A DNA stretch of 64,000 nucleotides, taken from NCBI RefSeq assembly GCF_964355755.1, contig NC_092679.1, positions 23,605,432 to 23,669,431 of the forward strand, given 5' to 3'. Below, piece after piece: positions 266 through 55,873 of the stretch. A model generated the notes under the pieces. That model saw only the letters and a list, made by a program, of their open reading frames with translations. It made no database searches and had not been told where the DNA came from. Both the position numbers and the translations under genes were made by a program. This DNA comes from Antedon mediterranea (Eukaryota > Animalia > Echinodermata). Numbering within the stretch: position 1 is the first letter of the stretch; each line of letters opens with the position of its first letter.

Positions 266-337
266 AGTATTTTCAATGCTGTCAAATCAGCAAATGCATT
301 GGCTGGCAATGTAACTATTTGGTTACCGCTCAATTTC
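266..337 (-). CDS. LRR exon (72 nt, phase 2/2) of LGR/GRL101-like gene C: (L)KLSGNQIVTLPANAFADLTALKI(L)
   Basis: Minus strand reads tttaaag|GAAATTGAGC...AAAATACT|gtgagt. Open frame with an LxxLxLxxN LRR consensus; near-identical to exons at 50832, 55385 and 55802. Confidence 0.85.
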
Positions 338-546
338 CTTTAAAAAAGAATACAAAAGTAAAAATTACAAATTATCAGTGGTACCAGGATTGTACCGCCA
401 AGGTGATATGCAACAAGCGAAGCGAGCATCATCATTGGTATGGTTGGTGCAGGGCCACAGTTAAGGATCCAGGGGAAGAATGACGTTCAGTGTATTTAAT
501 TTGAGGCCATTTTAATGAATAAAATAAGTTAACTTACTATACTCAC

Positions 547-551
547 AGTTC
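547..551 (-). pseudogene. Remnant of an LRR exon (donor side only), truncated by repetitive DNA
   Basis: The intron module 340-546 matches 50630-50831 and ends in atactcac-agttc, as at 50826-50836. Similarity then stops abruptly. Confidence 0.5.
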
Positions 552-1463
552 AGTACACTTTTTTTTCGATTTCCATTTTACAACCTTTCTTTGGAAATTT
601 TATCCTATTTTATTCAATTTTCAACTTGAAATCGCTATATACGAGCATGCGAAAGTGACAGGCTACACACAGAAAAACTCGTGAAAATGTTATGAAATGT
701 ACTGAATTTTAAAATTAAAGTTGAACCTCCGTGAGCGGCCACCTCCCGTATTTCAAAAGCCCGTGCATTTGGTGCCAAAATGATATCACTCTCACTGGGT
801 TGTTACATTAGAAAATCTTTGTAATTCAATCTGTTTCCTCTTTTAATCACATTTTATTTTAAGGCTTTGGTACAACCAGTCGTGCAAACGCTGACTTACT
901 ATACGCGCGAAGCGCTCTGTTGTGACGCTTTTACTCAAAATAGGCATACTGTATGGGGGAAAATGTCACCTTTTCATAGCCTATTACCGCAGTTTTCATA
1001 GTTTAAATATCAATTTTTAACACATTTATAATAACGAGAGTGCCATTTCCGACCATCTAGAGGTGTTATATTTGCAAAATTGGTTTTATTAAAGTGTTAT
1101 GTTGCTGTAATTTCTAACAAGAATTTATGAATCCTTGACTGTGATTGGCTACAGAGATAAATTACGCTCTCTGATTGAATTAATAAAATGATATCTTTAA
1201 AAAAATAGATTATCTTTATTTACTAAATCAAGGCATAATCTATAATTCCGTCACATTAAATCTTGTTATTTTTATTTATATTTTCTGAAGCACCTAATAA
1301 TGTTCTGTATTTTGATTAGGCTTACAAAGTAATTAATTGTTCTGATAATATCAACCAATCCCATGCACTTGACTAGCGGCATCACTTGGTTGGTACTAGG
1401 CCCGCTAGGTCCGTTATTCGACGACGCTATCATCGTTACTTAACTTAAGTAATATTTTATTAC

Positions 1464-1529
1464 AAAAATAATGTTAAATCAGCAAATTCATTGGCTGACA
1501 ATGTAACTATTTCGTTATCGTACAAATAC
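1464..1529 (-). CDS. Shortened LRR exon (66 nt, in frame) of gene C: (L)YLYDNEIVTLSANEFADLTLF(L)
   Basis: ttaaag|G TAT TTG...TTT TT|gtaata. Same cassette family with a 6-nt deletion and a weaker donor, so possibly degenerate. Confidence 0.55.
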
Positions 1530-1769
1530 CTTTAATGCAAAAGTAAAAATTACAAATAGGGAGATGATTCTGATCAGCTGATAAGAACACAACGCACTAT
1601 TATTAGGCCAACAAATTTTAATGTAGAATAAAAATAATGTTGAAACAGCTCATAAGTTCAACCACCCTACTAGGAGCATTTACCCACATAACAACAGGAT
1701 ATTTTACCAAAATACGTAAATGTTGAATAGTAAAATTCTTGTTTCCTGTGTTTGTAAATATATGCTTCT

Positions 1770-1900
1770 GTGGACTGTAACCATATATGGACACAATGAT
1801 GTGATACCACTACCATATTTGGGCACATCACTACCATATGAGCACATCACACTTTTTTTGTCAAACTCTTTTTTTTTATACTGTAGTGTAGACAGAGCTT
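1770..1900. mobile_element. Partial PIF/Harbinger-type MITE (AGCTCTGTCTACAC family)
   Basis: Right TIR gtgtagacagagct followed by tta; internal cactaccatatttggg repeats as in the copies at 27042 and 52437. Confidence 0.6.
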
Positions 1901-1924
1901 TAGTTGTTAGACTTTTTAACTACC

Positions 1925-2502: not shown

Positions 2503-5320
2503 CCCAGTGCACACTGGAATTTTCAGTGTGAGGAGGGGGAGTTGGACCTCCTGTCAGAATAAGATCAAGATGACTTAAAGGACTTCTTTAGATCGGGCTG
2601 GAGCCCAAGAAATCCATTTCAACCTCCACCAACACGCCTTGCCAGCGTGGTGCGAGTAGGCAAATTACCTTTACCAATTATGAAGAGAAGTAACACTAGA
2701 GCTCGTAATGCCCATGACCATAACGGGCCCTTCTCTGAGAAGACAATCACGAACAATGTGCTCAAATTTAAAACATATTCCGACAGAATACTGTACTGAA
2801 GCTACATATCAACAACAAACACACACTAAGACTAGTCCAAGCCTATGCTCCAACCACTAGCCACGATGACGAAACCATAGAATCATTTTACGAAGAACTA
2901 GACCAGGCACTAGAGGAGGATAAAACATACACACTTAATATGGGCGACTTTAACTCTAAAGTTGGAATAAGACAAACTAGGGAAGAAAAAGGCATAGGTC
3001 CTTTTGGCATTGGTGAAAGAAACGAGAGAGGTGAGAGACTGCTGGAATATGTTGCCAGCAGGAACCTTGTTATTGGAAATACATTATTCCGAAAATCTAT
3101 CGACAGGTATTGGACATGGGAGAGCCCCAATGCCTCTTCGCATAACCTCATTGACTATATTGTAACCAATAGAAGAGATATACTGATGGATGTTACTACA
3201 GTCCCTAAAGTTGATATTGGAAGCGACCACCGACTTGTGAGATCAAAAGTTAGGATGGATACGAGATTGGAGCGACTTAGAATCTTGAAAAGACCTAAAA
3301 AGATAAGGATCAAGATCAATAAATTATCAGATCAAAGCATCGAATTCAGATTAGAAATGAAAAACAGATTTGCATCATTACACGATCAGATGAATTACCA
3401 AACAGTAACTGAAAGTTACGATTAAATCGTCCAGACTACACTTGAAGCTGCTGAGAATCTAGCAAAAGAAGAAACAACACATGTTAAAATAGATAACAAA
3501 GAGATGGCAGAAATCAGACAAATGAACCAGAAAAGGAAATACTCTGTTCGACACCAAGTAGAATATACAGAACTCAACAAAACTATAAGGAAGAAACGAA
3601 GGGAAGTAAGGAGAAGACATAGATCAAAGATGGTTCAAGAGATTCTTGAAAAGCAAAAAGGGACAAAGTTTATCAACAGAAAAATGCAAACTGGAAAACA
3701 AATCATAACTTGTTTGAAAGACTCAGATGGAAATGAAACAAAAGACAAACAGCAACTCAATAAAGTGTTAAGGGACTTCTATAAGACCCTTTATAATAGC
3801 AACCAATCAGACTGGAGAAGGAATGAAAATCAGAGCTGATGTGGTTCCCCCTCCTACCGAGTGAAGTGCGCCATGCCCTTAAGAAAATGAAAAATGGAAA
3901 GGCACCAGGTGAAGACCAGCTAACATCTGACATAATCAGCCTCGGAGATGAAGAGGCAATTACAATAGTCACAGATCTATTCAACAAGATCATACTAGAA
4001 GAGGAAATCCCTCACCAGTGGGATGAAGCCAAAGTCATTCTTAAATTCAAGAAAGGAGACAGAAAGGATGTTAAAAATTACAGACCAATCAGCTTGCTTC
4101 CGCACCTGTATACAATCTTTACCAGGGTGATACTTGCTCGTATGGAGTCACAGCTGGATGATAACCAACCAAGAGAGCAGACGGCTTTTAGAGCAGGGTT
4201 TGGTACATCAGACCACCTACACACACTCAGCCTAGTTATTGAGAAATCAATGGAATATAATTTCAACTTGTTCTTGGGTTTAGGACTACGAAAAGGCTTT
4301 TGATAGCCTTGATCATCAGTCACTTCTGAGAGCTTTGAAGCACCAAAACATTGACGAGAAGTACATCAAACTTATCAAAGCTATCTACAAGAATCCCATT
4401 TCCAGGATTCACCTTGATGATACCATTACAGAGTCAAGGAGATCCAATATCCCCTAAATTGTTCACAGCTGCTCTAGAGGAGGTATTTAAGAACACAAAC
4501 TGGTTCGACAAAGGTATCTTATCCTAGTAGATGGTGAACGATTAACACATCTTCGCTTTGCAGACGATATTTTCATCCTAAGCCACACATGTCAAGAACT
4601 TCAAGAAATGATGCAGGACCTTGACAAAGAAAGTAGGAAGGCAGGTCTCAAAATGAACATAAAGAAAACCAAAGTCATGTCAAATACCAAACATCAAAAC
4701 TTCAAAGTAACTGTACTTGGAAAGAATTTGGAAATCTACATCTATCTTGGAAAGAAAATAACCTTCATAACTAGCTCAGAAGAGGAGATCAAAAGAAGAA
4801 TTCAGCTAGGTTGGGCAAAGTTCGGTTCATTGGGATACATATTCCGCGACACATCATTACCTATCTCGTTGATAAGACAGGTCTTCAACCAATGCCTCAT
4901 ACCAACCCTTATCTACTGTTCGGAAACATGGACCATTACTAAGCGTCTCGAAAAATGGCTGAGGGTAACAGAAAGGGCAATGGGAAGAGTACTAATAGGT
5001 GTCACAAAAAAAGATAAAGTGTCAAATACAAATCTCAGATTTAGATCAGGACATAATAAGCAGCATAAAATCAAAGAAATGGAGGTGGGCAGGACATTAG
5101 GCCAGGAGATATGACAACAGATGGACAGTCAGACTGACAAATTGGACTCCAAGAACCTACAAAAGAGGCAGAGGGAGACAAAAGATGAGATGGAGGGATG
5201 AACTAACAACACATGGTGGCATTGCATGGCAAAGAGTAGCTAGAGACGTGAATGGTCAATTGGTGAAGAGGCCTTCGTCCTGCAGTGGAAAGAAATAGGT
5301 TAAGAAGAAGAAGAAGAAGA
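2503..5320 (+). mobile_element. RTE-clade non-LTR retrotransposon, degenerate APE-RT
   Basis: ORF pieces with MGDFNSKVG, RNERGERLL, WTWESPN, IDYIV, SDHRLV (APE); KAPGED, NYRPISLL and FADD at about 4557 (RT); (GAA)n tail at 5303-5320. Several frameshifts; 5' boundary approximate. Confidence 0.92.
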
Positions 5321-5731: not shown

Positions 5732-5864
5732 AATTCTTTTACCGTATTATTTGTATTGAACTCAACGAGCTGTGAATGTACGGTTGTATTCCATCTATAA
5801 CATGGTATACGCCAACCACGCAAATAGGTGACATTATAGCAACGGCAATTTGTTGGGCATACAC
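5732..5864 (-). CDS. LRR N-terminal cap (LRRNT) exon of gene C: (G)VCPTNCRCYNVTYLRGWRIPCYRWNTTVHSQLVEFNTNNTVKE(L)
   Basis: aacgtag|GT...TT|gtacgt; 133 nt, phase 1 to phase 2. It joins the signal-peptide exon and the LRR exons in frame, carries a CPxxCxC...C cap motif and is homologous to 25837-25954. Confidence 0.85.
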
Positions 5865-8510: not shown

Positions 8511-8568
8511 CTGAAGAGATGGAAAACGGCAAAACGGCCAATATCACAAGGATTTGAAAGATGAACAT
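8511..8568 (-). CDS. First coding exon (signal peptide) of gene C: MFIFQILVILAVLPFSISS(G)
   Basis: aaaaagATG...TCTTCAG|gtatga. Hydrophobic 19-aa leader with a phase-1 donor; paralogous to 27404-27461. Confidence 0.85.
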
Positions 8569-9696: not shown

Positions 9697-10545
9697 AATA
9701 GGCCTACTGTATTATGCCTTATACATAATAGGCCTACTGTATTATGCCTTATACATAATAGGCCTACTGTATTATGCCTTATATTAATAGGCCTACTGTA
9801 TTATGCCTTTTATTAATAGGCCTACTGTATTATGCCTTATACATAATAGGCCTACTGTATTATGCCTTATTTTAATAGGCCTACTGTATTATGCCTTATA
9901 TTAATAGGCCTACTGTATTATGCCTTATATTAATAGGCCTACTGTATTATGCCTTATATTAATAGGCCTACTGTATTATGCCTTATATTAATAGGCCTAC
10001 TGTATTATGCCTTATACATATTAATAGGCCTACTGTATTATGCCTTATATTAATAGGCCTACTGTATTATGCCTTATACATATTAATAGGCCTACTGTAT
10101 TATGCCTTATACATATTAATAGGCCTACTGTATTATGCCTTATACATATTAATAGGCCTACTGTATTATGCCTTATACATATTAATAGGTCTACTATTAT
10201 GCCTTATACATATTTAGCCCATTAACACTGCACTTAATAGGCCTACTATATTTGGCCTTATACATATTTAGCCCATTAACACTGCACTTAATAGGCCTAC
10301 TATATTTGGCCTTATACATATTTAGCCCATTAACACTGCACTTAATAGGCCTACTATATTTGGCCTTATACATATTTAGCCCATTAACACTGCACTTAAT
10401 AGGCCTACTATATTTGGCCTTATACATATTTAGCCCATTAACACTGCACTTAATAGGCCTACTATATTTGGCCTTATACATATTTAGCCCATTAACACTG
10501 CACTTAATAGGTCTACTTTATTATGCATTATACATTATTTAGCCC
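9697..10545. repeat. Compound minisatellite: 29-33-bp units (taataggcctactgtattatgccttata) switching to 54-bp units at about 10200
   Basis: Direct inspection; the periodic ORFs (18-aa MYKAKYSRPIKCSVNGLN) reflect the 54-bp unit. Confidence 0.95.
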
Positions 10546-10972
10546 ATTGCACTATTTGGAATTACATTGTTTATTAAATATGGGCAACGACAGGAATAAC
10601 GAGAGAAAAATGAATAAATGAATGAATTAATGAATGAATGCATGTAAACAAAATCGGAAAATTTATTCCACGAGATATAAAATATATATTCGTGAGGTAA
10701 TTTCCCGCATGATCGCAATCAAAAAACGGTACTGGACTTGGTCTACTAGCGTTTTGCCTCATAAATATTCATGAAGTCATCATTGGTATTTACCCCATTG
10801 TTTTAGCGGTCATTGTTATTTATTAGTTACCATTATTGTAGTCGTTTTTAACTGTACGGTTGATGTGTCCTAAGAAGTGTAACAAGAAGGCAAAACAGGT
10901 ACATCACTGCTAATGTTGAAGTGGTGATCTCATAGTGAGTTATGTTGTGTTATTTAACTATTTATTAGAATA

Positions 10973-11340: not shown

Positions 11341-11893
11341 AGAATTTGGGTTTGTTCTTAATCTTAATCTTAGTCAGGCAAGTTCACGAATCGAACCATC
11401 TCGCTCTACACCATGTAACCTACATTTGATAGTGATCCAGTTTACTCGCATCATTGTCAGTAAAGTAAGCCTATAACAAACTCAAATAATACAAACAACA
11501 TCACAATTTTAACTAATTCTACTTTATTTTAATCGTTAAATTGCGCATCATGTCAGAGTAGTTATAATTAAAATCATAATTAATACAAACCAATTCTATA
11601 ATAATTTAAAACGAAGATCTACGATATCTTAATTATCTTTTAAAATGAAGGTTACTTAAAAGTATAAAACAAATCAATATACTTAGCAATTGCTTTTTTA
11701 TCAATTTGTATAATATAAACTAATATACCAATAGTAAGTTTTATCAGATGACAAAAACAAACAATGTTGGCCTAATGCATTGGCAAACACATTGATGTAG
11801 GCCTGTAAAGTGCACTTTATCTATACTTTTCTATTGAATAAGTTATTTATAATCTATACACATTCTTCACATAAATAACATTAATTATAATAA

Positions 11894-13186
11894 CTAGATG
11901 GCACGCTCGCTTCGCTCGCGTACCATCTAGGTCGTGCCCACAGATGGTTCTCGAATACACAGTATTTTCCAGCGAGAAAAAAATGGAGATTTCAAATGTA
12001 CGTACTGCAGGACTATAATACATTGTCGTTTACAGAAACGAATAAATATACACGATGATTTATGTAGTCAGCTAAAATTAGCACCCTGGGAATTACTTCC
12101 GAGAGACAACCAAAATGAGTCAATTTTTTTTATTTGGACTCATTTAAACAAACCCAATTTGTGTTTTGTATGTAACATTAAGGGTTGAGGGATGGGGGAA
12201 GAAGATAGGTACAAAGAGGAAACATTTTAAAATATATTTTTATCCACTAAGTAACGAAATATTGTTTTTAATGTTTTATAGGCCTATAAATAATATACCA
12301 CTAAATACAGTAAAACATTTACGATTTAATACTTTGTTAAAACTCTCACTGTCATAGTCGATTGAAATAGTAAAGTACATGTAACGATACACCACTACGT
12401 ACGTTTATATATTTTTAAATTATTAATTAATACAAACGTTGAGAAGCAACTGTCAGTAATAACGTTTATTTATTTGTATATTATATGTTTATAATCTAAC
12501 AGTAGGGCCTACCCACACTCACAGTAATAAAGTTTATTTGTATATTTGTTTATATTATATCTAACAGTACCAACACTCACAGTAAGAAATTTGCGATTCA
12601 AATTGCGATCAAAAGTGGTTAATACCTTAACAGTATTGTACAGCATTGCAATACTATTTATGTTTATTCTCCAAAGGGGCCCATAAATCTAAATCTATAC
12701 CTCTATGGTTAAACCAAATAATTTGGAATGTTCCATTCATCACAAATCAATACATTTGTAAAAACGTATATTACATGTATCAAAATAGCATTTTTTAAAG
12801 AAAATCGGCCTGTCTTCAACATTATGATGCTGTACTCGAACTGTTCAACCGGTTTTCAGCTATTAAAAACAATTATCGTAGGAGGAGATAGGAAAATGCG
12901 AAGTGTCCTCGTATTATTGTGTGCGGGTATTTTTCAAATTGACATCCATTAGACAGTGTATACCACGATCGGAAAACACCCCTATTTGGGGCAAATCGTT
13001 GAACCTAAATTCGTTTTAATCGTCAATAACTAATTATCGAACTCAATTTAATTAGTAAACAGGGTTACATCAGGTGGTTAAAATTAGTACCGAAAGTACG
13101 AACCAACTTTATATACCATCGAGTAAACATTCTAGAAAGAACGCACGATTTACCGATTTTTGCCCTTACGTAAATTTATATATAGA
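11894..13186 (-). mobile_element. Non-autonomous Helitron
   Basis: Minus strand A|TC...hairpin...CTAG|T with no TSD. The exact empty site (taataa|taattg) is present in the paralog at about 31382. Confidence 0.88.
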
Positions 13187-13360
13187 TAATTGTATAAAGA
13201 AACGAATGTAGATAAAAAACAACTATGTAATAAAAAAGTGTTAATGGATTATATGTATAAAAAGAGGAAAGCAGTATTAGTAGAAATTATATATTAAAAC
13301 AAAATTATGAAAAATGTGATAAAATGTAACGAAATGAATACAACTTAAAAAAAAGCTTAA

Positions 13361-16205
13361 AGATGTATTGTCCCCCTGAACAAAAAAAAAATTTTTTTTT
13401 AAGGCCATTTTAATGATACATAAAAGTTATTCACTTTGAAAAAAAAATTGGATCAAAAAAAAAATTATTTACCTTAGAAAATCGTAATTTAAAGTAAAAA
13501 ATAGTCAACCGGAAGTCGGTTGGCTGGCAGCCAGCTGGCTTCCGGTTAAATTTAACCCTTGACCTGAATTAGCTTATGAATTATGCATATTGTATGATTC
13601 TTGTGCGTGTATGTGACCTCTAGGTCATCAGAAAAAAAATACGACGTGATATGGCGAGACGACGATGTGGGAAAGTTCTGTAGTTTAACAACAACAAAAA
13701 ACAACTCCTACTTGAAGAAAAGACTATGGCTAGGCCCTAACAGATTGGTAAGTAAGAACTGTAGTTTCTATGGTGCAGCTTTGTTAGTTAGTATAGGAAG
13801 CCTAGCTAGCCCATTACAGCTGTACTGGCTATCTAGTGTACTATCCCCTATCTATTGGCTAGGCCTAGAGTAGTAGCTAGTCTAGTAGTGGTAGTAGTAC
13901 TAGGCCTAGTTGTAGGCCTGAGTGAGGGTTCACCCTGAGTGAGTAGCAGGCCTAGCTAATACTAATAGATACAACTTGTAAGCCTTATTAATAGTTATTG
14001 CCAACCTAGCTTTAAATAGGATTAGGCCTATAACATTCATCTGTGAGCATGGAGTAAGGAATAAGGTTTTAGCATGGAGGTATAAAAATAAAATATTTTA
14101 TACCTCCGTGGTTTTATTGTGACTTGTGTGAATTTCGACACCACCAACTCGTCTTATTTTTAGTATAATATTATAATATTAATAATAGTCTTTAATTTAT
14201 CATTATTCATATCACTTTTCATTCATTTTAAAACATTTAATTTTTTTTTCTATGTAGAGTTTGTGATTTAAAAAAATTATACATAAGAGCAGCGAAACTC
14301 AAAAAGCGAAAACTTGTGAATGGCTGCCAAAAATAGAAAATAAGGTCACCACCAGGGCCAGGAGAGATTATGGTGCTTGGTTTTTCCTTCATGATTAATC
14401 AGATTTTAATGCTAATATAAATTTGTGAACATTGTAACTAGGCCTATACTGTACATCCAATAATGTAATTATTTTAGAGAAAATGACCAAATAATCTAAG
14501 TTGAATATTTTTTGGAATGTGTACTTTACAGTACTTAGTACCGTTATGTTGAAAATTCTTCCAAAGCAATAACGTTCAAACCAACATTCACACAATTAAA
14601 CTTTTTATGTACATATTTTAATAAATAATGTCTTTCTTTTAATAGGTATTAACACACTTGAATGAACAATATGAGCAAGTAGTGGAAAATGGTGAAGAAA
14701 TCAATACAAAATGTGGTAGCAACATTCACAATATTTATTTGAACGTTTCTTACTATGACACTTTAAAATGGATGAACAATCACAGAAGACAAGCTATTGC
14801 TGTAATGCCACAATCAACACATCAATTAATAGTTGAAAATAAATTGTCAACAATAATGCAGAAATTCAATGAAATATACTAGTAATTAACTCATTTTTTA
14901 CTGTACTGTACTGTACTGTAAATCTTCACACATTAAAATTATGGTGATTTTATCTCATGTACTGTAGTAGTATTTTTTATTTATTTAATGCTGTATACAA
15001 ATGTTATTGCTCTAATTATGAAAACTATACAAAATTTTAAAAGCTGGAAAACAACCAACACATTTGCCTAATGCTTTATGATAGTCATCCAATATTTATC
15101 TTGTGTTCCACTACCGAGTCTACTGCCAGTTGCCTTTAAAATGCTGTATGGGTGTAACTTCTGTTCCAGTCTTCATTAGCTTAAGTCTATAAATTGAAAA
15201 ACAATGATGTATAAATACAAAAGTCAAATAGAAAAGTTAAATATTTCACAATTTATTGCATACATATAATTATTATTTCTGTACATGAATCTGAAGTTTT
15301 CAATTTGGGGTACTAATGTACAGTAAGGAATCCCTGAAAAGTGCATCTCCTCCCTAAAAAAGGCCTAGTCTATTTTACTAGTGTTTTCGTTTTGGTTGCT
15401 ATCAACAACAATCTATTCTACCGTCAACTTCTTTGGTACTGTATGCTGATCATTTTCCAAATGTTCGTTTTTTGTCATCAGTTAGTCTTTTTTAGACTTT
15501 AAAATTAATTCGAGCTCCAAATGTATATCAGTGGTACATCAACATAGTAGGCCTATTTCCTGTAGCTAGTTGTGGAGTGATGGCTTAGCTAGGTGAGTAC
15601 GACATATAGGACCTAGCTAGGCCTCAAAGTGGGTTCCCGTCTACTTTTCTGACCCGATTATCTGCCTGCCTACAGCTGCCACTACACTACACAGTAGTAA
15701 ACTACAGTACTAACTAGGCCTAGGCCCTACTAGATAGTAGAAGTAGGCTTATATTATAGCCCTAGCCTAGATAGCTAAGCCTATAACTATACGCCAAAAA
15801 CTATTATAGGAGGATGTGTCATTCATCTAAAATAGAATTCTACTTACCAGCAAATTAACGGCAGAGCTTTTTACATCATACGATCAGGGAAACCCCAGCA
15901 CTTTCTTCTGTTCTTCGCACATGTTTGTTTACGTGGTGAACAGATCGGATCTCCCCTGTTTGGATACTCATTAACATATCATGCATATGTATGAGCTGTT
16001 AGCTAACCATCGTTATTTTGGCATTTCTGAACTTATGAGTTCGAAAAAATGGTAAACTTATTTTGATTTTTTATAAGCGAAATCAATATTTTTTTCGGAT
16101 TTTTTTTCGGCGAAAGTGAATAACTTTATTATAACTACAAAATGGTCTATTCAAAATTTGATTTTTTTCATCTTTATTTTTCATGTTTTGGGGGACAATA
16201 CAACT
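13361..16205. mobile_element. Non-autonomous Kolobok-type DNA transposon (2.85 kb)
   Basis: ttaa|AGATGTATTGTCCCC...GGGGACAATACAACT|ttaa; absent from the paralogous site at about 31597. Confidence 0.85.
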
Positions 16206-16576: not shown

Positions 16577-16886
16577 TTTTTTTTTTCTTTTGTTTCATAA
16601 ACAACAATTACAGAATCTCTAAGCATTTTCTACATTTTTTTCGTTATTTTCTTATTTTTATCCTTTATAATATTTGGCCTATACGTAGTACCCAATGTTT
16701 TCTTAATGTATATATTTGTTTTTTTCTACTACATTTATAAAATATATATATGTTTACATTATTTTCTGCATATTTTTTGTTATGTTATCTATTACAAAAT
16801 ATATTGCATATTAATAAAAAAGTTGTTTACTTATGAAACGTTTGTTAACTTATTTAAATCATAATTTGTGTGTCTATCAGTTTATA

Positions 16887-18767: not shown

Positions 18768-19888
18768 TTATCTGTCAGTATTTCTAGGTCTCATTTCCTG
18801 AAGCTGTATAACAACCACAGGTCGTGTTCGATTGGTATAAGCAACGTTTGGTTTCTTATCTTTGCTTAAACAAGTAAAGCAATAGTCGATAATTGTGTAT
18901 AGATAGGGATTGACCGAGGAGTTAATTGGTATGATGAACATTGCAGAAAAAACATATATTTCCACAGGAGGTACCCACCAATCCAGTTCAGCACCAATTG
19001 CCATCAATACAATAGGAAACCAGCAACAGAAATCTGTGAAAATGAGAAACCCTATTTTTACAGCAAGTTTGATATCTTTTTTTCTTCTTCGTTTTCTGTT
19101 AGCACCTGCTGATGAGCGCTTGATAGACACGAAAATGATTACGTAACTCACAGCGATGACGATAAAACCTAAACTGTCCGATGTAGATAGCAAAAGCATA
19201 CTCCCAGCCTGGCCAGTGGCTTTTTGATAACGGCAGTGCAAGGCACACACTCTTTACTCCATAATAATTATCCCCGAAATAATACCACGCCACGTCGTCG
19301 TCGAAGTAATAATACTTGTGTTTTATGACGTTTGCTACTTCTGGAAGAAAGCTGAGCACAATCCAACACACCCATGCAATTCCGATAATAATTCTACAAT
19401 TTCTGCAACTAAGACGTTTGGTACTAAATGGATAAGCGATGTTTATAGCACGGTCGATGCTTAAAAGAATTAGTGTAAAAACCGAAGACTGACCAGAGAG
19501 AGTAGCAATGGCACCAGCAAAACTGCAAAGAAAACTATCCTTCCAATCCGATTCAAATTGTGCGTATCGACCTCTATAATGCATATCTACACTTAAAATG
19601 ATAATCAAATAGATTACCATCAGCAGGTCCGACACGGCAAGGTTGGTGATGAGTATGGTTTGCACTTTATTAATTTCGTTATCATTACTTTTGTTGTTAT
19701 CCTTTTTACACTGTCGTGATATGATAACGACTAAATTTCCAGTAACTGCTGAAATTACAATAATCCACATCAATACCCGTATGTATTCACTTTCTAGTAA
19801 GTCTTCACATGAAGCAAATGGATCTACGCCAGGATAGCAATAATCAATGTCACCCACAATGGAACATAAACATGATAAATCCGCCCAC
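18768..19888 (-). pseudogene. 7TM exon of GRL101/RXFP-like LGR gene A, frameshifted
   Basis: ttatag|G TGG GCG GAT acceptor; SCEDLL, NLAVSD, SIDRA, FTDFCCWFP and PINSSVNPYLY motifs. A 5-bp deletion (TTCAA) at about 19177 relative to gene B splits it into two ORFs. Confidence 0.9.
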
Positions 19889-25836: not shown

Positions 25837-25954
25837 AGTCCTTTAACTGAAGTATAATTGTTATACTCGACAAGCTGTGCATGTTTATGTTTATTCCATC
25901 CGGTACATTGTACGCAATGGTGCTCTAATCCATTACAAGTTGGTCGACAATAAA
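25837..25954 (-). pseudogene. LRRNT-like exon of gene A: (V)YCRPTCNGLEHHCVQCTGWNKHKHAQLVEYNNYTSVKG(L)
   Basis: tttgacag|TT...CT|gtaagt; phase 1 to 2; aligns with the gene C exon (WNxxxHxQLVE). An alternative acceptor at 26043 would be out of frame. Confidence 0.7.
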
Positions 25955-27403: not shown

Positions 27404-27461
27404 CTGAACATCTAGAAAACGGCAACATCGCCAATATCATGATGGTTTGAAAGATGAACAT
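27404..27461 (-). pseudogene. Signal-peptide exon of gene A: MFIFQTIMILAMLPFSRCS
   Basis: aaaaagATG...TGTTCAG|gtacga; paralog of 8511-8568. Confidence 0.82.
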
Positions 27462-32925: not shown

Positions 32926-34030
32926 TTATCTGTCAGTATTTCTAGGTCTCATTTCCTGAAGCTGTATAGGCCTAACAGCAACCGGTCGTGCTTGATTGGT
33001 ATTGGCAAGATTTGCTTTCTTAAAGCAACAATCGACAATTGTGTATAGAAAGGGATTGACCGAGGAGTTAATTGGTATGATGAACGTCGCTGACAAAACA
33101 TATATTTCCACAGGAAGCGTCCACCAATCCAGTTCAGCACCAATTGCCATCAATACAATAGGAAACCAGCAACAGAAATCTGTGAAAATGAGAAAGCCTA
33201 TTTTCACTGCTAGTTTGATATCTTCTTTTCTTCTTCGTTTTCTGTTAGCACCTGCTGATGCGCGCTTGATAGACACAAAAATGATTATATAACTCACAGC
33301 GATGATGATAAAACCTAAACTGTTGAATCCTATGTAGATAGCAAAAGCATATTCCCAGCCTGGCCAGTGGCTTTTTGATAATGGCAGTGCAAGGCACACA
33401 CTCTTTACTCCATAATAATATTTCCCGAAATAATGCGACGTCACTTCGTAATACCAGATGTATGTTATGGCGTTTGCTACTATTGGGAGAAAGCTGAGCA
33501 CAATCCAACACACCCATGCAAATCCGATAATAATTCTACAATTTCTGCAACTAAGACGTTTGGTACTAAATGGATAAGCGATGTTTATAGCACGGTCGAT
33601 GCTCAAAAGCATCAATGTAAACACCGAAGACTGACCAGAGAGAGTGGCAATTGCACCAGCAAAACTGCAAAGAGGACTCCATTTCCAACCCCATTCAAAT
33701 GTTGCATATCGCCCTCTGTAATGTATATCTACACTTAAAATGATAATCAAATAGACTACCATTAACAGGTCAGACACGGCAAGGTTGGTGATGAGTGTGG
33801 TTTGGACTTTATTAATTTCGTTATCATTACTTGTGTTGTTATCCTTTTTACACTGTCGTGATATGATAACGACGAAATTGCCACTAACAGCTGTAATTAC
33901 AATAATCCACATCAATACCCGTACGTATTCACTTTCTAGTAAGTCTTCACATGAAGCAAATGGATCTACGCCGGGATGGCAATAATCAATGTCCCCCACA
34001 ATGGAACATAAACATGACGAATCCGCCCAC
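32926..34030 (-). CDS. Terminal exon (hinge + 7TM + C-tail) of GRL101/RXFP-like LRR-GPCR gene B
   Basis: Intact ORF extended to the phase-2 acceptor ttatag|G TGG GCG GAT. Motifs WADSSCLC, SCEDLL, GNFVV, NLAVSDLLM, SIDRA, VCLALP, FTDFCCWFP and PINSSVNPFLY are typical of LGR class C-like receptors. Confidence 0.93.
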
Positions 34031-35231: not shown

Positions 35232-35303
35232 AATTCTGTTAAGTTTTTCAATTCCTCAAAAGTACTCGAATTGTAATCCTGTAAGTTGTTACCGCGTAAC
35301 CGT
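35232..35303 (-). CDS. Last LRR exon of gene B: (L)RLRGNNLQDYNSSTFEELKNLTE(L)
   Basis: ttttgtag|A...TT|gtaagt; 72 nt, phase 2/2, LRR consensus. Confidence 0.88.
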
Positions 35304-35613: not shown

Positions 35614-35688
35614 AATATTCTCAGTGATGAAGCAAAAGAAGTAAATGCATATCGATCTATTGTAGTTATGCTGTTGGAATTTAAATGC
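35614..35688 (-). CDS. LRR exon of gene B: (L)HLNSNSITTIDRYAFTSFASSLRI(L)
   Basis: cttttaaag|G...TT|gtaagt; 75 nt, phase 2/2. Confidence 0.88.
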
Positions 35689-45523: not shown

Positions 45524-47791
45524 TACAGCAGATACAACAATGTTCTAATTACGGAACTACAATATGTGCATTCCTCATACGCATCAGCTGCATCGGCTGA
45601 CCTTGGTGTTTCGTCGGTGGAGTAGACCGCAGATAAAGAACGTGGGTCTATCGAAGAAGCTGTGTTAAAGTTATTTAAAGAGAAAATGAATGTTGACGTT
45701 AACACTTGTGATTTGGAAGCTGTACATATTTTACCAACTAAAAGTAATTCGCAATTAACTAGGCCTTTAGATTTTGTTCGCGAAGAAAGAAACAGAAAGT
45801 GATGAAACCTAAGGTAAAGGTCAAAGCAGAGAATATTTACATAATGATCATTTTGACTAGAGCAAATGCGGAGTTATACAAGCGTACCAGAGATTTAAAA
45901 AAACAAAAGAAACTAGAAGCCACATGGACCAGAAATGGTAAACTTTTTATTAAACGTATTGATAAAAAATGTGTGCATATTAAGAATACATTTGACATTA
46001 ATGACCGTGCATAATTCTTTGCTAAAAAATAACCAATATTCAGTTCGTTATAAATTTGTGGTGTTATCATTAGCAAGTATGTTATTGTTAATGGTTGAAA
46101 CTATTACACAAGTACCAAATATGTTAACAAAGAAAGAACTAGAAGAGAACAAGCAGTCGCTGAACCTCATGACATCTCAGTTGGAAGAACTCAAGGAAGG
46201 CAAAAAGAAACAGAAAGACATTAATCATTTTGCAATTAAGACAGCCAACATAAACCTTCCTCATGGAAGAACCTTTAATTGACCTTAATGTAGGCTCCCT
46301 TTCATCATCTGTGTTTAATCCTAGCAATCTTGACGGAGATAGAGATCCTGATAATAATATTCTTAATACTATGAGTGCAATTACTACACAAATGAACCAT
46401 TCAGTAGAGAATGTGATATTAAAAATAAGTTTACTATTATTCATTTTAATAGTCGTAGTATGGGTGCAAATTTTGAGAAAAATAAAAAATTATTTATCAG
46501 AGTTGGGATCATCACCTGACGTAATTGCAATTAAAGAAACATGGATACGACCTGATAATTCGGTTACTTTTTACATTAATGGCTATGTATTTAATAGTAT
46601 TTCAAGACAAGAAAAGTATGGAGTGGGTGTTGCTCTTTTTATAAGAGAAAGTCTTAACCATAATGTCCGTGATACCCGACTGCTGTGAATATATTTCTGT
46701 TATTGTCTATATTAATAATTCTAATTCAATTTACATATCATGTATATATCGTGCACCTGGTACAGATATAAAAATATTTACTGACACATTTTCAGATCTG
46801 GTCAAGTCAATAACTGATAAGCGGTTATTTATATGTGGTGACTGGAATATAGACTTACTTAAACATGAGAGTAATTGGAACACTAAATGTTTTATTGATA
46901 ATAGTTTTAGTTTAGGAATTTTTCTTCTAATTATTAAACCAACAAGAATAAGAGAAACAACAGCAACCCTAATAGATAATTGTTTCACTTGTGATGTTCA
47001 TTCTGTCATAAATAGTGGTATCTTGATTAACCATATCACAGATCATTTACCAATTTTTACAACAATTAATTATAATGTTACGCCAAGTACTACACATAAA
47101 AATATTACTAAAAGATATTTTATTGAGGTTAAAGTGAATGCTTTAAAAAATGACTTGCGTTACACTGATTGGAACAGTGTATTTATTGAAGAAGATCCAA
47201 ATAATGCTTACGATGTTTTTCATGTAACATTTTATACACCTATTCAATAAATATTTCCCTCCCCAAAAGATTAAATTGACGCAGAAAAGTAATTCAAAAC
47301 CCTGGCTCACATCTGGCCTAATTAATGCATGTAAAAAGAAGAATAATCTATACAAACTTTTTTTTAAAAGATCGAACATCATCTTCAAATAGGTATAAGC
47401 GATACAAAAATAAGCTAACAAATATTATGAGAAATGCTGAGAAACAATATGATAATAACTTATTATTGTTAAAACAAAATGATATTAGGGGTACTTGGAG
47501 TATCATCGATGGTCTGATTAAAACAAGAAATTATTGAAATCTGTCAAAAGATTTTATCGATAATCCTGTTGATACTGTAAATGGTTTCAATAATGTTTTT
47601 GCTAAAGTAGCCAAAAATATAACAAGTCAATTTCCAAGTCGTGATAGTCCCAATGATTATAATAAAAAACGTATTCTAAATTCTATTTTTTAGAGGCCGG
47701 CACTTCCAAAGAAGAATTAATGACAGAAGTGAACTTATTTAAGTCTAAAAATTCCAGCGGACATGATTATGTACCTATGTCAATAGTTAAA

Positions 47792-50370: not shown

Positions 50371-50624
50371 ATTTGGTTTATGGCCACATTCCTTTAAAAA
50401 AAGATACAAAAACTAAAAATTACAAATTACAAAAAGCGGTAGAACCAGGATCGTCCCGGCCCGACAAGGGGATGTGCATGAAAAAGCGATCACCATTTGG
50501 CTGATTGCATGTCAAGTGGCCCAGGGACAAATGAGCCGTTTTAATAATTTAAAAAGGGTTACTTAATATACTCACTGTATTTTCATTGGGTGACAATGTA
50601 ACTATTTGGTTTATGTACTAAAAC
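50371..50624 (-). pseudogene. Two decayed LRR cassette exons (50371-50391 truncated; 50576-50624 with a deletion and lost AG)
   Basis: They retain the flanking intron modules, the atactcac donor or ctttaaa acceptor, and part of the caatgtaactatttggtt core. Confidence 0.65.
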
Positions 50625-50831
50625 CGTTAAAAAATAATGCAAACGTACAGTAGCAATTAGCAGTGTTACCAGGATCGTTCCGACAAGGGGGATATGCAAC
50701 AAGCGAAGCAAGCATCATCACTTGGTTGGTGCTAGGGCCACAGTTGGGGGTCCAGGGGAAGAGTGACGTTCAGGGTATTTAATTTGAGGCAATTTTAATG
50801 AATAAAATAAGTTAACTTAATATATACTCAC

Positions 50832-50903
50832 AGTTCTTCCAATGCTGTCAAATCAGCAAATGCATTGGCTGGCAATGTAACTATTTGGTTACCGCTCAAA
50901 CGC
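50832..50903 (-). CDS. LRR cassette exon of gene B: (L)RLSGNQIVTLPANAFADLTALEE(L)
   Basis: ctttaaag|G...CT|gtgagt; 72 nt, phase 2/2. Confidence 0.87.
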
Positions 50904-52436: not shown

Positions 52437-53155
52437 AGCTCTGTCTACATTACTTATTATTTATTTAATTTCAATCTTTCTACATAACAAAAAAAGACAT
52501 ATAAGTATAACAGCAGAGTAGCGGAAAAGCAAAAGTAATAAAACTGTCATCTTGTGATGTGCTTGACCAGCCCCTGTCAACTAGGATGATACAATAAAGC
52601 CGAGATTTAACAAATTTAGAAACGTACATAGACAAATATGCTATAATAAAATGTTAATAAAAGTGTTCTAAAAATACAATTGCTGATAAGATTGTATAAA
52701 AGTTAAAAAGTTAAAAATTCTGATTGTATAAAAGTTAAAAAGTTAAAAATTCAGAGTAGGTACAATCTAAAAAAAAATCATGTACATTTTCAAAACTTTT
52801 GGTTTATAAAAATATGAAAAGTTAGAAATCTATAAAATGTTGCTTTAAACTGTGTTTAAACTTAAAAAACGACTCTTCAATAAGATTATTTCTGATCGTA
52901 GCACCAAGTTCTGAAAACATTTTAGGAAACCGTACTATCCCTGAGTATTTAAAAGCATCAGTACGAGCTCTACCATGATGAAAGGTGAGTATATCTAGGT
53001 GTCGGTTATTAACTATCAAACTTTATGTGACAAAAAAATGTGATGTGCCCATATATGGAAATGATGTCATATCACTACCATATTTGGGAATATCACTATT
53101 ATATTTGGGCACATTACACTTTTTGTCAAACTAGTTTGATTGTGTAGACAGAGCT
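52437..53155. mobile_element. Harbinger-type MITE (TTA TSD) interrupted by a minus-strand LINE 3' fragment (about 52452-53010)
   Basis: tta|AGCTCTGTCTACA...TGTAGACAGAGCT|tta; the ARTDAFKYS ORF fragment and ttattt tail belong to the LINE. Confidence 0.75.
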
Positions 53156-53661
53156 TTAGTAAGGTACATATTGATGTCTATAATGTGTAGCTCATCAGAT
53201 GACTGAGCTGGACTGAGCTGAACTGAGCTGAACTGAACTGCTGGGCATAGCCTATCTCACATTAAGTGCATAATCCACTTTTGTGTTCTATTAGTATTAA
53301 TTAGTGGCTTTATTTGAAATTTTATACAGTACTTGTAGCTCCTGAACGTCTGCGATATTATATGATTATTTTCTGTCAGTGTCGTAAAGGAACAGGTAGA
53401 GAGTATATTGGCTGCAAGAATTTGTGTATTGTGAGTATGGTAGAGTTGTTTGAAGAACGCAGGAAAGCCTATTGTTGTGATGATTTTTATGATTTTGGGT
53501 TGCGGGTGATAACAAAGTATTTTGGCTACAGCTGGTTTGGGAGAAACGGCATAGAAATATCGAAGTCGAAGGATAACATTCATTGCAACCGTTACAAGGG
53601 TAGGCCTATATTCGATGGAGATTCATCTATAGATAATAAAGTTAACGGTCAATAACCTTAA

Positions 53662-53996
53662 AGGCCGGGCACACTGTCTGGCACGAAGAACAGTTTGCTC
53701 ACTAAAAATTTTTCGTAAATTATGATTGTATTCAATCAGAGTGCTTTCAAACAAAATTATACGCCACACACTGACTAATAAATTAGATTGTACATGCGCA
53801 GTGGAATTTTCTTGTCAGCAGTTAGCTCACGTTCGCCGCACAGTGTGAGGAAAAAGAAATGCGTGAAAAATATTAAACATGATAGATATTTTCCTCAACG
53901 GCATCCATGGCCAATCACGAATTTCCCGCCGCACAGTACACTGTGAGCAAAGTTTTATTCGTGCCAGTTGGCTCAGCCGATAGTGTACGCCGAGCT
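53662..53996. mobile_element. Harbinger-type MITE
   Basis: Imperfect TIRs ggccgggcacactgtctggc / gccgatagtgtacgccgagc with TWA-like flanks. Confidence 0.5.
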
Positions 53997-55384
53997 TTAC
54001 TTCAAACCATTTTGTCACAAAATATCTCATTATAGGCCTATACAAAATATAAATGTATATATTCTGAAACATTTGAACAATAATAACTGTTTCTATGGTC
54101 AGTAGTTATCGAGATATAGCATATCAAGGTCAAAAGAAAAAAAATGGCATTTCCTGTAATTGTCAGAATGTTTTAGAGTAAATATAAATATGTGTATATT
54201 CTCAGTATTTAAAGCCCATAGTTTGCCGAGATATTGAAATGCTACTGAAAAATATCAATTTCAAAGGTCAAAAAATGCAAGAAATAGAATTTCCGGGCAT
54301 TTTTGGCCAAAATGAGAGCAGAGCAAATATAAATTTATATATGTGAACTTTATTCAATCAATCGTACATTTGTTATAATGGTAACCGCAATAAGGTATAA
54401 TATTACAAATAAATATGTTCTGAATATTTTGGTACCAGAAACATGTCAATAAACAAATTAAAATGTCCATATCTTAAAGATCTGGAAATTTTTACTTGTT
54501 TTTCCGGTCGAAAATTCCCAATACTACCAAATCCGTTGAAATCCGTTCTACTCTACTATTTAAGTTAGCTTTAGGCTAATCTATGTATGTTTGGGGTGGT
54601 TGTTCAATACTAGGGAGGCATGTTTTACAAGATAAGCTTTTGAGCTGATCTACTGAACATTAAAAATGTCAATGGCAATGGTCATTTATGATAATATTAG
54701 GGATCATGCTGAACATTTTAAAGCATGTTTTATAAGGTTAAGTCGAATTTTTGGAGGGTGGGGTGTTTCACAGTGTCTGGCGGGCAATTAGAATGTTAAT
54801 TTAAACTGATCTAGCTCATTTGTGGCCCTCCTGAAATGGGGTCTGGCAGGCACACCCACCAGTAAAATTGTATGGCAATGGTCATTCATTACATTTCACT
54901 CTATGTCAAACAATTTGCAAAAGATTTCATTGAGTTAACTTTTCGGTTGATCTAGATCATATTTTTGACCCTAGTACAATGCCCCTCCTAGCCACACCCA
55001 CCAAAATAAACTCGCCAGACTGTCATTTCCATTTGATATGTACGTTGATAATTGCCACATGCATAGAAATTGGTTAACTTTCCAGCTAGGTTGACCCCTC
55101 TGGTCTCCTGCTCTATAATGTCAGGTGTTTCGACACACAAGTAGTTTTAAAAACCCAATTTGTTCAAATCAATCCGCTTGTTTGAGGCGTTTTGATAGGC
55201 TAGTCTATTATACTATAGGAAGCAATCTCATCCGTTTGGCTTTTTTTTTTATCTAGTAAAGTGGTGGTACGGTCCTGCATGGTTAACCAAGCACCACTGT
55301 CTTAAGCCTGTTTTCCAGCCGACGTTATTCGACGACGCTATCATCGTTGATCGTTAAAAGTTAACTTAAGTAATATACACTCAC

Positions 55385-55456
55385 AGTTCTTTCAATGCTA
55401 TCAAATCAGCAAATGCATTGGCTGGCAATGTAACTATTTGGTTATAGCTCAAATAC
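55385..55456 (-). CDS. LRR cassette exon of gene B: (L)YLSYNQIVTLPANAFADLIALKE(L)
   Basis: ctttaaag|G...CT|gtgagt; 72 nt. Confidence 0.87.
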
Positions 55457-55801
55457 CTTTAAAGAAAGAATACAAACGTAGAATACAATTATACATTATT
55501 TTAATGTGATACAAATTTACTACAAAATACACATTTCTACAAAAAAAGTACTTATTATTATATTATTTCCGCTGAACGACACGAAATCACAAAAAAACAG
55601 TTATTTTAATAATGTTTTTTTATTTTCATGACTGTTTCGGTATTGTTATGCCTATTAATTACCTACACAATGGTATGTTATGTTTTTTTAAGTTTTTGAA
55701 ACAGTAAAGAAAAGTGGTACGGCCCTGCATGCACTGTCTTAAGCCTGTTTTCTCGACGCTATTATCGTTTAGTTGTAAAAGTTAACTTAAGTAATACTTA
55801 C

Positions 55802-55873
55802 AAAAATGTCAATGCTGTCAAATCAGCAAATGCATTGTCTGGCAATGTAACTATTTGGTTAAAACCCAATTTC
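55802..55873 (-). CDS. LRR cassette exon of gene B: (L)KLGFNQIVTLPDNAFADLTALTF(L)
   Basis: tttaaag|G...TT|gtaagt; 72 nt. Confidence 0.87.

What the first reader, a model, noticed from the sequence alone, without database searches (positions are those of the whole stretch)
266..55873. Hypervariable LRR exon cassettes build the GPCR ectodomain: invariant core, variable ligand-binding face
Seen: four intact 72-nt exons from two genes (266, 50832, 55385, 55802) share a 51-nt core, AAC CAA ATA GTT ACA TTG CCA GCC AAT GCA TTT GCT GAT TTG ACA GCA TTG. The core shows only two substitutions in total and no synonymous change. In contrast, codons 1, 3, 4, 22 and 23 are replaced wholesale: K-L-SG..KI, R-L-SG..EE, Y-L-SY..KE, K-L-GF..TF, plus Y-L-YD in the 66-nt copy. 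Established: these are the x positions of xxLxLxx, the solvent-exposed concave beta-strand that binds ligand and is hypervariable in lamprey VLRs, TLRs and plant LRR receptors. Hormone-binding LGRs/RXFPs usually have a fixed set of mutually divergent LRRs. Inference: this may be a diversifying, modular LRR-GPCR recognition system (immune, allorecognition or chemosensory), hidden from ORF finders because each exon encodes only 24 aa.
Basis: partly seen in the sequence, partly recalled or inferred. Interest (0 to 1): 0.93.

Follow-up and report, generated by a model that had tools for sequence, protein, structure and literature searches.

The report
Feather-star GPCRs with hypervariable LRR cassettes
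These tiny exons are duplicated one-repeat modules of an expanded family of cell-surface receptors, likely from a feather star, whose predicted binding face differs far more between copies than the DNA around it, which likely reflects selection to recognise changing foreign molecules.

Summary
Four intact 72-nt, phase-2 LRR exons and four decayed copies lie in a tandem cluster of three LRR-GPCR genes. The nearest relatives are Antedon 'GRL101-like' proteins (83-84% identical).

Between the three gene-A copies, 9 of 10 first/second positions of the five xxLxLxx codons vary, against 36 of 195 flanking intron columns (p=5e-6). Two RNA-like runs hold head-to-tail cassette joints, 12 of 12 listed with period 72 and in frame. 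The predicted beta-strand straddles the splice junction, so each face is built from two exons. The 7TM's extracellular loops also diverge fast.

Corrections: the core is not invariant in a larger sample, and its lack of silent change is only borderline. The 72-nt phase-2 layout is old LGR architecture. Gene B is broken. No LDLa is found, so these are not GRL101 orthologues.

Best reading: a germline, birth-and-death recognition-receptor family under diversifying selection. Non-self recognition is more likely than chemosensing, but this is untested. It works like brown-algal ROCO LRR exon shuffling. GRL101-like expansions are known in snails, and this scan noted a like pattern in octopus adhesion GPCRs (unchecked). 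Verdict: new variant of a known kind.

The parts
55802..55873 (-). Gene A LRR cassette exon (72 nt, phase 2)
55385..55456 (-). Gene A LRR cassette exon (72 nt); its exon+intron unit repeats the previous one at 417-nt spacing
50832..50903 (-). Gene A LRR cassette exon (72 nt)
   Evidence: laid with public runs
50576..50624 (-). Decayed cassette: acceptor AG lost, in-frame stop, 23-nt deletion
50371..50391 (-). Cassette remnant: acceptor and first ~21 nt only
35614..35688 (-). Gene A penultimate LRR exon (75 nt, phase 2, not of the cassette type)
35232..35303 (-). Gene A last LRR exon (72 nt, phase 2)
32926..34030 (-). Gene A terminal exon: Cys-rich hinge + intact class-A 7TM (PF00001, E 5.6e-25)
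27404..27461 (-). Gene B first coding exon, signal-peptide-like (judged by eye)
25837..25954 (-). Gene B Cys-rich N-cap (LRRNT-like) exon
18768..19888 (-). Gene B hinge + 7TM exon with a 5-nt deletion (frameshift) in TM5; no LRR exon found between it and the N-cap exon: probable pseudogene
8511..8568 (-). Gene C first coding exon, signal-peptide-like (judged by eye)
5732..5864 (-). Gene C Cys-rich N-cap (LRRNT-like) exon
   Evidence: (E 2.7e-8 to P0001)
1464..1529 (-). Gene C 66-nt decaying cassette (6-nt deletion, weak donor, frame open)
547..551 (-). Gene C cassette remnant: last 5 nt plus donor; positional counterpart of 50832
266..337 (-). Gene C LRR cassette exon (72 nt); the gene continues off the window's left end

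Best explanation
The exons are duplicated one-repeat modules of tandem LRR-GPCR genes in an expanded, likely crinoid-specific receptor family, and their face codons differ far more than flanking introns, likely because selection favours new binding surfaces for variable foreign ligands. Step 1 (shown): units of one exon plus a few hundred bases of intron are duplicated in tandem and often decay. Step 2 (inferred): unequal crossing-over between these units changes cassette number in the germline and keeps each gene's framework uniform. Step 3 (shown as excess divergence; cause inferred): diversifying selection acts on codons 22, 23, 1, 3, 4 and to a lesser degree on the 7TM's extracellular loops. 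Step 4 (predicted): the concave beta-strand is codon 23 + the split Leu + codon 1, so gain, loss, reordering or skipping of a cassette makes a new strand without a point mutation. Step 5 (inferred): bound ligand signals through conserved intracellular loops, without the LDLa module of relaxin/GRL101 receptors. For the ligand class I put about 0.5 on pathogen, parasite or allo-ligands, 0.35 on environmental or conspecific cues, and 0.15 on others.
For: Face codons: 9 of 10 first/second positions vary among three gene-A units against 36 of 195 intron columns (p=5e-6) or 9 of 81 proximal columns (p=6e-7); mean pairwise difference 0.67 against 0.06-0.11. Four decayed copies beside four intact ones. 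Runs X8 and X9 carry head-to-tail joints; 12 of 12 listed (2 more not shown) have period 72, are in frame and keep the split Leu; the two such joints in the main table have depth 0 in X2 and X6. At codons 3 and 4, 10 variant rows fall on first/second positions and none on third. AF2 model of P0112 (pLDDT 82.6; 90-98 over the LRRs): strands every 24 residues at codon 23-Leu-codon 1. 7TM A vs B: pN 0.151 in extracellular loops, 0.040 in helices, 0.023 in intracellular loops; N/S contrast p=0.004. At least 16 clusters (30 sequences) of close Antedon paralogues on 8 scaffolds, in a 100/100 clade apart from conserved GRL101. Gene-specific frameworks: P0256 0.89 identity within, 0.21-0.34 to other Antedon genes, 0.25 at face positions. 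Crinoids have only three insulin-related peptide genes (PMC8286064 passages), too few for this many receptors.
Against: The selection test rests on 3-4 copies. Measured against their own silent sites the face codons give only pN 0.54 / pS 0.32 (2.6 silent sites per pair), so import of short tracts from older cassettes could add to the signal. Exposed LRR positions vary in any LRR protein, and my repeat pattern fixed the structural columns, so the entropy is not proof of selection. No complete gene lies in the window: A lacks its 5' end, C its 3' end, B is broken. A cassette-to-7TM transcript was not observed; the link rests on reading frame and on RefSeq models P0001, P0112, P0256. The RNA status of X8 is a guess, X9 is unlabelled, and the joints may come from other loci. 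Extracellular-loop pN/pS is about 0.9, which also fits relaxed constraint. No ligand or tissue evidence.
Confidence: 0.72

Rival explanations
1. Same architecture, but a chemosensory or pheromone/contact receptor family, diversified for environmental or conspecific cues rather than for an immune arms race.
For: GRL101-like genes expanded to 29-132 copies in apple snails, tandem, many expressed in tentacles and palps (PMC6573481 passage). GRL101-like expression in starfish sensory tentacles and triton tentacles (PMC6267866, PMC13403566 passages). The 7TM extracellular loops also vary.
Against: The starfish gene is an LDLa-bearing receptor, not this clade. A large excess of face change over adjacent introns, with repeat birth and death, is the pattern described for candidate immune receptors (PMC3341825). 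A GRL101-like cluster with presence/absence variation maps to schistosome resistance in Biomphalaria (PMC12297450).
Confidence: 0.3
2. Neutral exon turnover: recent tandem duplication makes the copies alike, purifying selection holds the structural framework, and exposed positions merely drift in a decaying cluster.
For: Half of the cassette copies are decayed and gene B is broken. Framework silent invariance is not clearly beyond intron divergence. In the larger sample the core's variants are 8 amino-acid-changing to 2 silent positions.
Against: Drift cannot exceed the neutral rate, yet face sites differ at 0.67 against 0.06-0.11 in introns. Gene A's 7TM helices are under purifying selection (pN 0.04, pS 0.18). 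Junctions in RNA-like runs are all in frame.
Confidence: 0.1
3. Conversion mosaic: face codons are short tracts copied from older, divergent cassettes (or spared while core and introns are homogenised), so the pattern comes mainly from recombination in the 51-nt core.
For: The core of gene C's cassette is identical to gene A's 50832 though the introns of the matching units differ by about 17%. Silent divergence is 0.32 in face codons and 0 in the framework. Frameworks are uniform within genes and differ between them.
Against: Tracts would have to spare or replace 12 nt wedged between a conserved intron end and the core, repeatedly and at both exon ends; keeping that needs selection. Third positions of codons 3 and 4 show no listed variants. 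It complements rather than excludes the best explanation.
Confidence: 0.2
4. Somatic or splicing-level repertoire: one individual assembles many ectodomains from the cassette pool by alternative splicing or DNA rearrangement, as with Dscam or VLRs.
For: All cassettes share one phase, and the face forms across the junction. Run X9 lists 9 different junctions. Brown-algal ROCO LRR exons are alternatively spliced (PMC11378527). Two Anneissia isoforms differ by one LRR (P0261, P0265).
Against: Many genes and many genomic cassettes explain junction diversity without this (218 and 256 contigs laid in the two genome-like runs). Cassettes carry their own splice sites inside genes. No inverted copy was found.
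Confidence: 0.12
5. Ordinary insulin/relaxin-peptide receptors (GRL101 or RXFP orthologues).
For: Best PDB sequence hit of P0112 is RXFP1 (E 3.9e-65); database name 'GRL101-like'.
Against: No LDLa found in the window. The clade is separate from conserved GRL101. One GRL101 orthologue and three insulin-like genes are reported for crinoids. Repeats are homogenised, unlike conserved GRL101s (0.14-0.22 framework identity).
Confidence: 0.04

Closest known systems
Brown-algal ROCO LRR exon shuffling (Zambounis 2012, PMC3341825; Teng 2024, PMC11378527; passages read)
   Same: One LRR per 72-nt phase-2 exon, decayed copies in introns, variable repeat number, selection on the concave face, gene clusters with pseudogenes.
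   Different: Those are ROC-COR GTPases; here the output is a class-A 7TM in an animal. No inverted copies were seen here. By the type I consensus quoted there, the exon boundary lies outside the variable strand; here it cuts through it.
GRL101 / type C2 LGRs and their snail expansions (PMC4079206, PMC8286064, PMC6573481, PMC12297450; passages read)
   Same: RXFP-like 7TM and hinge, LRR ectodomain, tandem clusters, presence/absence variation; suggested sensory or anti-parasite roles.
   Different: No LDLa (or C-type lectin) module found here, separate clade from conserved GRL101, and a homogenised, face-variable cassette array, which the passages read do not describe.
Non-canonical LGRs of Trichoplax (41 of 46) and Nematostella (PMC9545775; passages read)
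   Same: Lineage-specific LGR expansions with unusual repeat numbers and unknown ligands.
   Different: Those have their own hinge type; no selection or exon-cassette analysis in the passages read.
Scallop LDLa-less GRL101-like receptors (P0038, P0043, P0063, P0002; database proteins)
   Same: Uniform framework with variable face positions (e.g. P0043 0.64 vs 0.37, P0038 0.51 vs 0.37).
   Different: A separate 100/100 clade with its own LDLa-bearing sister, so likely a parallel origin; exon structure not examined.
Lamprey VLRs (own knowledge; also summarised in PMC3341825)
   Same: 24-aa LRR cassettes, conserved framework, variable concave face.
   Different: VLRs are assembled somatically into an incomplete gene and have no 7TM; here cassettes are ordinary spliced exons.

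Membership tests
LGR (LRR-containing class-A GPCR) | Rhodopsin-type 7TM domain | tested here: met
   PF00001 E 5.6e-25; top fold matches of relative P0112 are TSHR and LGR4
LGR (LRR-containing class-A GPCR) | LRR ectodomain in frame with a Cys-rich hinge and the 7TM | tested here: met
   Five phase-2 LRR exons read into the hinge exon of gene A; same order in P0001; joint to the 7TM not seen in RNA
LGR (LRR-containing class-A GPCR) | Signal peptide and Cys-rich N-cap | tested here: inconclusive
   Candidate exons for genes B and C, judged by eye; gene A's 5' end lies outside the window
GRL101 / type C2 LGR | Multiple LDLa repeats before the LRRs | tested here: not met
   No tblastn hit with LDLa-rich N-termini of P0004, P0005, P0016 and no LDLa motif in six frames; B and C go from signal exon to N-cap exon. 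Gene A's 5' end is unseen.
GRL101 / type C2 LGR | 7TM groups with conserved GRL101 orthologues | tested here: not met
   Window rows lie in a crinoid clade (20 rows, 100/100); conserved GRL101s form a separate 6-row clade (100/100) (midpoint root, no formal clade test)
GRL101 / RXFP (type C) | Activation by an insulin/relaxin-like peptide | not testable with these tools
   No assay available
RXFP1/2 (type C1) | Single N-terminal LDLa module | tested here: not met
   RXFP1 is nonetheless the best PDB sequence hit
ROCO-type shuffled LRR exon system (works like) | One repeat per 72-nt phase-2 exon, with inactivated copies in introns | tested here: met
ROCO-type shuffled LRR exon system (works like) | Diversifying selection on concave-face sites | tested here: met
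   Excess over flanking introns p=5e-6 on three copies; no codon site model was run
ROCO-type shuffled LRR exon system (works like) | Inverted LRR exons on the non-coding strand | tested here: not met
   No plus-strand copy in 64 kb
ROCO-type shuffled LRR exon system (works like) | Alternative splicing of LRR exons | tested here: inconclusive
   Many junctions but contigs cannot assign them to one gene
ROCO proteins (membership) | ROC-COR GTPase domain | tested here: not met
   The LRRs lead to a 7TM; Pfam on relatives shows no ROC/COR
Variable lymphocyte receptors | Somatic assembly from flanking cassettes into an incomplete germline gene | not testable with these tools
   Germline layout differs (cassettes have splice sites inside genes); single-cell DNA would be needed

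The most novel reading that the evidence does not exclude
Crinoids, and in parallel scallops, turned a relaxin-type hormone receptor into a combinatorial non-self receptor. Because each binding strand is spliced together from two hypervariable exon ends, cassette gain, loss and skipping give one animal a large repertoire of GPCR binding surfaces: a VLR- or Dscam-like system that signals directly through a G protein.
Probability: 0.2. Interest if true: 0.88.

Novelty: new variant of a known kind. Interest (0 to 1): 0.62.

Why it matters
Rhodopsin-type LRR-GPCRs are treated as conserved hormone receptors; one survey of Ambulacraria reports a single GRL101 orthologue per species (PMC8286064). Here a relaxin-receptor-like scaffold carries the signature of a fast-evolving recognition protein, in a deuterostome, in a family that annotation lumps under 'GRL101-like'. 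If real, it gives a testable candidate for non-self or chemical recognition in crinoids. It also gives a way to read the unexplained GRL101-like expansions of snails, scallops and placozoans, including a cluster linked to schistosome resistance. And it would show another independent origin of cassette-built LRR diversity, coupled straight to G-protein signalling.

Tried and rejected
No whole genome is held, so no genome-wide cassette count or site model was possible. The search for cassette-bearing short proteins (110 hits among 7988 scored candidates) was swamped by unrelated LRR proteins and returned no crinoid protein; it says nothing on whether cassettes occur outside GPCR genes. The run search listed no holder on record as RNA. 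Laying the 6-kb stretch was dominated by a high-copy short repeat and showed no cassette joint. Summed contig depth at the cassette's variable end is 72-92 times a low-depth intron bin, but the tool states this is no copy number, so I claim only 'many'. The single-sequence fold (pLDDT 40) was discarded for the alignment-based one. In one search my motif cut dropped 6 of 46 rows (P0112, P0119, P0126, P0131, P0008, P0009). In one search, 7 of 18 proteins, among them most LDLa-bearing controls, had too few matching repeats to score. 'Invariant core as a recombination signal' was not adopted: borderline statistics and variants. An assembly artefact for the 7.7-kb palindrome was rejected (target-site duplication). 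The genome look-up of earlier findings was empty. Paper search was empty; the placozoan paper was then fetched by a recalled DOI.
Full report
OBSERVATION. The 51-nt core is found four times within three mismatches, all on the minus strand; 0 of 100 shuffles gave a match. Each copy sits in a 72-nt AG/GT exon with one base before and two after 23 codons, so the junction codon is always Leu. The two core substitutions both change the amino acid. Variation is concentrated in codons 1, 3, 4, 22 and 23: 12 of 15 columns against 2 of 54 (p=4e-9). These positions are defined beforehand by the LRR motif LxxLxLxxN (established knowledge), so the test is not post hoc. A looser scan adds four decayed copies: 1464-1529 (66 nt, weak donor), 50576-50624 (acceptor lost, stop, 23-nt deletion), 50371-50391 and 547-551 (remnants). 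None lies on the plus strand.

ANATOMY. There are three tandem genes on the minus strand. Gene A has three cassettes, a 15-kb intron with LINE pieces, two non-cassette LRR exons (35614-35688, 35232-35303) and an intact hinge+7TM exon (32926-34030; PF00001 E 5.6e-25), all in one frame; its 5' end is outside the window. Gene B has a signal-like exon, a Cys-rich N-cap exon and a 7TM exon with a 5-nt deletion in TM5, and no LRR exon was found between them. Gene C has a signal-like exon, an N-cap exon and cassettes, and runs off the left end. The duplicated unit is exon plus intron: spacing 417 nt for 55385/55802, and 297-551 matches 50584-50836 at 83%. No LDLa was found by tblastn with three LDLa-rich N-termini or by motif.

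RELATIVES. The 7TM's best hits are Antedon mediterranea P0001 (84%) and P0112 (83%), then Antedon and Anneissia 'GRL101-like' proteins at 51-65% (111 hits of 2073 candidates; 27 of 3019). I infer a crinoid close to Antedon. Excluding the distant P0134, 16 Antedon clusters holding 30 sequences (isoforms may be included) lie on 8 scaffolds; none has PF00057 listed, though many models are incomplete at the N-terminus. In a 7TM tree of 40 rows (6 of 46 dropped by my motif cut; midpoint root) the window rows lie in an Antedon clade (15 rows, 100/100) beside an Anneissia clade (5 rows, 96/92). Together (100/100) they group with LDLa-bearing crinoid paralogues. Conserved GRL101s of urchin, hemichordates, snails and an insect form a separate clade (100/100), and scallop LDLa-less receptors another, with their own LDLa-bearing sister. 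Independent LDLa loss in crinoids and scallops is an inference; no clade test was run.

IS THE FACE UNDER SELECTION? Among the three gene-A units, 9 of 10 first/second positions of the face codons vary, against 36 of 195 ungapped intron columns (p=5e-6) or 9 of 81 proximal ones (p=6e-7). Mean pairwise difference is 0.67 against 0.06-0.11. Framework sites are at or below the intron rate: 2 of 36 first/second (p=0.08) and 0 of 18 third positions (p=0.048; 0.21 against the proximal flank). So the signal is fast face change, not an unusually frozen core. Against this reading, face codons measured on their own few silent sites give pN 0.54 and pS 0.32, which leaves room for short conversion tracts.

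PROTEIN-LEVEL PATTERN. Among 43 distinct Antedon repeats the five face positions are 5 of the 6 most variable (2.4-3.3 bits; position 16 is the other). Structural columns were fixed by my pattern and do not count. Frameworks are gene-specific: identity at free framework positions is 0.91 among window cassettes, 0.73 to P0001 and 0.24 to P0256, which is 0.89 within its own 11 repeats and 0.25 at face positions. Of 138 LRR-GPCR hits, 52 had four or more in-register repeats. LDLa-bearing GRL101s show no such contrast (P0016 0.20 face / 0.14 rest, P0041 0.14/0.16, P0018 0.13/0.22), while crinoid and scallop LDLa-less receptors do (P0001 0.22/0.55, P0043 0.37/0.64).

THE 7TM VARIES THE SAME WAY. 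Between A and B, pN is 0.151 in extracellular loops, 0.040 in helices and 0.023 in intracellular loops; the N/S contrast gives p=0.004. ECL2 is aromatic-rich and differs in length among four close paralogues. Its pN/pS near 0.9 could also be relaxed constraint.

ARE CASSETTES SPLICED? One cassette with short flanks was laid on four runs at 80% likeness. X8 (organism A, RNA guessed) and X9 (organism B, kind unknown), from two studies, hold joints that go from the start of one cassette to the end of another. In 12 of 12 listed rows (3 in X8, 9 in X9; 2 more not shown) the step back plus the inserted letters equals 72. Decoded by hand, all are in frame and keep the split Leu, for example L-Y-L-D-H-N, S-L-D-L-G-L-N and T-F-L-H-L-G-Y-N. 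The two such joints in the main table have depth 0 in the genome-like runs X2 and X6, where 218 and 256 contigs were laid. This shows intron-less cassette arrays for the family; it does not tie them to this locus or to a 7TM.

VARIANTS IN THE LARGER SAMPLE. The same call lists 23 variant rows. Ten fall on first/second positions of codons 3 and 4 (all three alternative letters at both positions of codon 4; none at third positions), two on codon 22, and 11 on 10 core positions (2 silent, 8 amino-acid-changing; the majority type has Ser at codon 8). The table lists nothing for codons 1 and 23, which do vary, so it is incomplete. The core is therefore not invariant.

STRUCTURE. An AF2 model of P0112 on a 48-row alignment (pLDDT 82.6; 90-98 over the LRRs) has strands every 24 residues at 79-81, 103-105 and onward, which correspond to codon 23, the split Leu and codon 1. 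That this sheet is the concave, ligand-binding face is established LRR knowledge; coordinates were not inspected. The consequence is that each face row is contributed half by one exon and half by the next. Top fold matches are TSHR and LGR4; the top PDB sequence match is RXFP1.

MECHANISM. Shown: tandem exon+intron duplicates, decay, excess face divergence, in-frame head-to-tail transcripts, family expansion. Inferred: unequal crossing-over as the source, selection as the cause, and G-protein output through conserved intracellular loops. In RXFP1 the LDLa module is needed for activation (recalled, no call), so these receptors would need another trigger. The ligand is unknown. A hormone is unlikely, since crinoids have three insulin-related genes and one GRL101 (PMC8286064, passages). 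I favour non-self recognition over chemosensing, about 0.5 to 0.35.

WHAT IS KNOWN (all papers: passages from term searches only; no supplements read). Brown-algal ROCO genes have one LRR per 72-nt phase-2 exon, inactivated intronic copies, concave-face selection and alternative splicing (PMC3341825; PMC11378527); the latter notes the same exon phase in gonadotropin receptors. GRL101-like expansions are described in apple snails (PMC6573481) and at a schistosome-resistance locus in Biomphalaria (PMC12297450). Sensory-organ expression is reported in starfish and triton (PMC6267866, PMC13403566). Other expansions: 41 Trichoplax-specific LGRs (PMC9545775), Ciona LDL-repeat GPCRs (PMC2396169) and octopus adhesion GPCRs, some with LRRs (PMC6408891). 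LGR types follow PMC4079206. Ten searches listed no paper on a crinoid LGR expansion or on face-hypervariable exon cassettes in a class-A GPCR. The library lacks most subscription papers, and genome-paper supplements could mention the expansion. Earlier notes of this scan describe a like pattern in octopus adhesion GPCRs (unchecked, not counted as evidence).

VERDICT. The feature is real and not ordinary: a known diversification logic on a GPCR scaffold, in a family annotated only by name. Function and any within-individual repertoire are untested. New variant of a known kind; interest 0.62.

Noticed in passing
window 56221-63907: A 7.7-kb foldback element: arms of about 3.3 kb, 97-98% complementary by blastn, 351-nt spacer, 8-bp target-site duplication, no ORF of note. 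It sits 348 nt upstream of cassette 55802-55873, inside a gene A intron. Resembles sea-urchin TU foldback elements (recalled).
   Followed up: partly
window 18768-27461: Gene B has lost all LRR exons and has a 5-nt TM5 deletion. Its N-cap and 7TM exons are still in compatible phase. LINE fragments fill 22250-25776. An assembly error for the frameshift was not excluded.
   Followed up: partly
window 32926-34030 vs 18768-19888: ECL2 is Tyr/Trp-rich and varies in length among four close paralogues, while ICL1-3 are nearly invariant.
   Followed up: partly
P0001 residues 1-345 and about 880-1240: The N-terminal 345 aa have no counterpart in the window and no Pfam hit; by eye they recall an IL-17-receptor-like ectodomain. 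The C-terminus looks retroelement-derived. Probably a fused gene model.
   Followed up: no
P0038, P0043, P0063, P0002 (scallops): A parallel set of LDLa-less GRL101-like receptors with uniform LRR framework and variable face.
   Followed up: partly
window 53012-53160 (also 1781-1904, 27041-27185): A very high-copy ~145-nt element with sharp ends in all four runs; probably a MITE.
   Followed up: no
window 37107-40351 (+), 2772-5114 (+), 22778-24365 (-), 46254-47250: LINE elements; 37700-40351 is an 883-aa open endonuclease/RT frame (PF00078) inside gene A's long intron, preceded by a Cys-rich frame.
   Followed up: no
window 9697-10548, 26101-26856, 30223-30857: Young minisatellites (29/54, 20 and 75-nt units); the 20-nt array lies in gene B's first intron.
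   Followed up: no
window 11390-20377 vs 30829-34648: Segmental duplication blocks between the downstream regions of genes A and B at 76-93% identity.
   Followed up: partly
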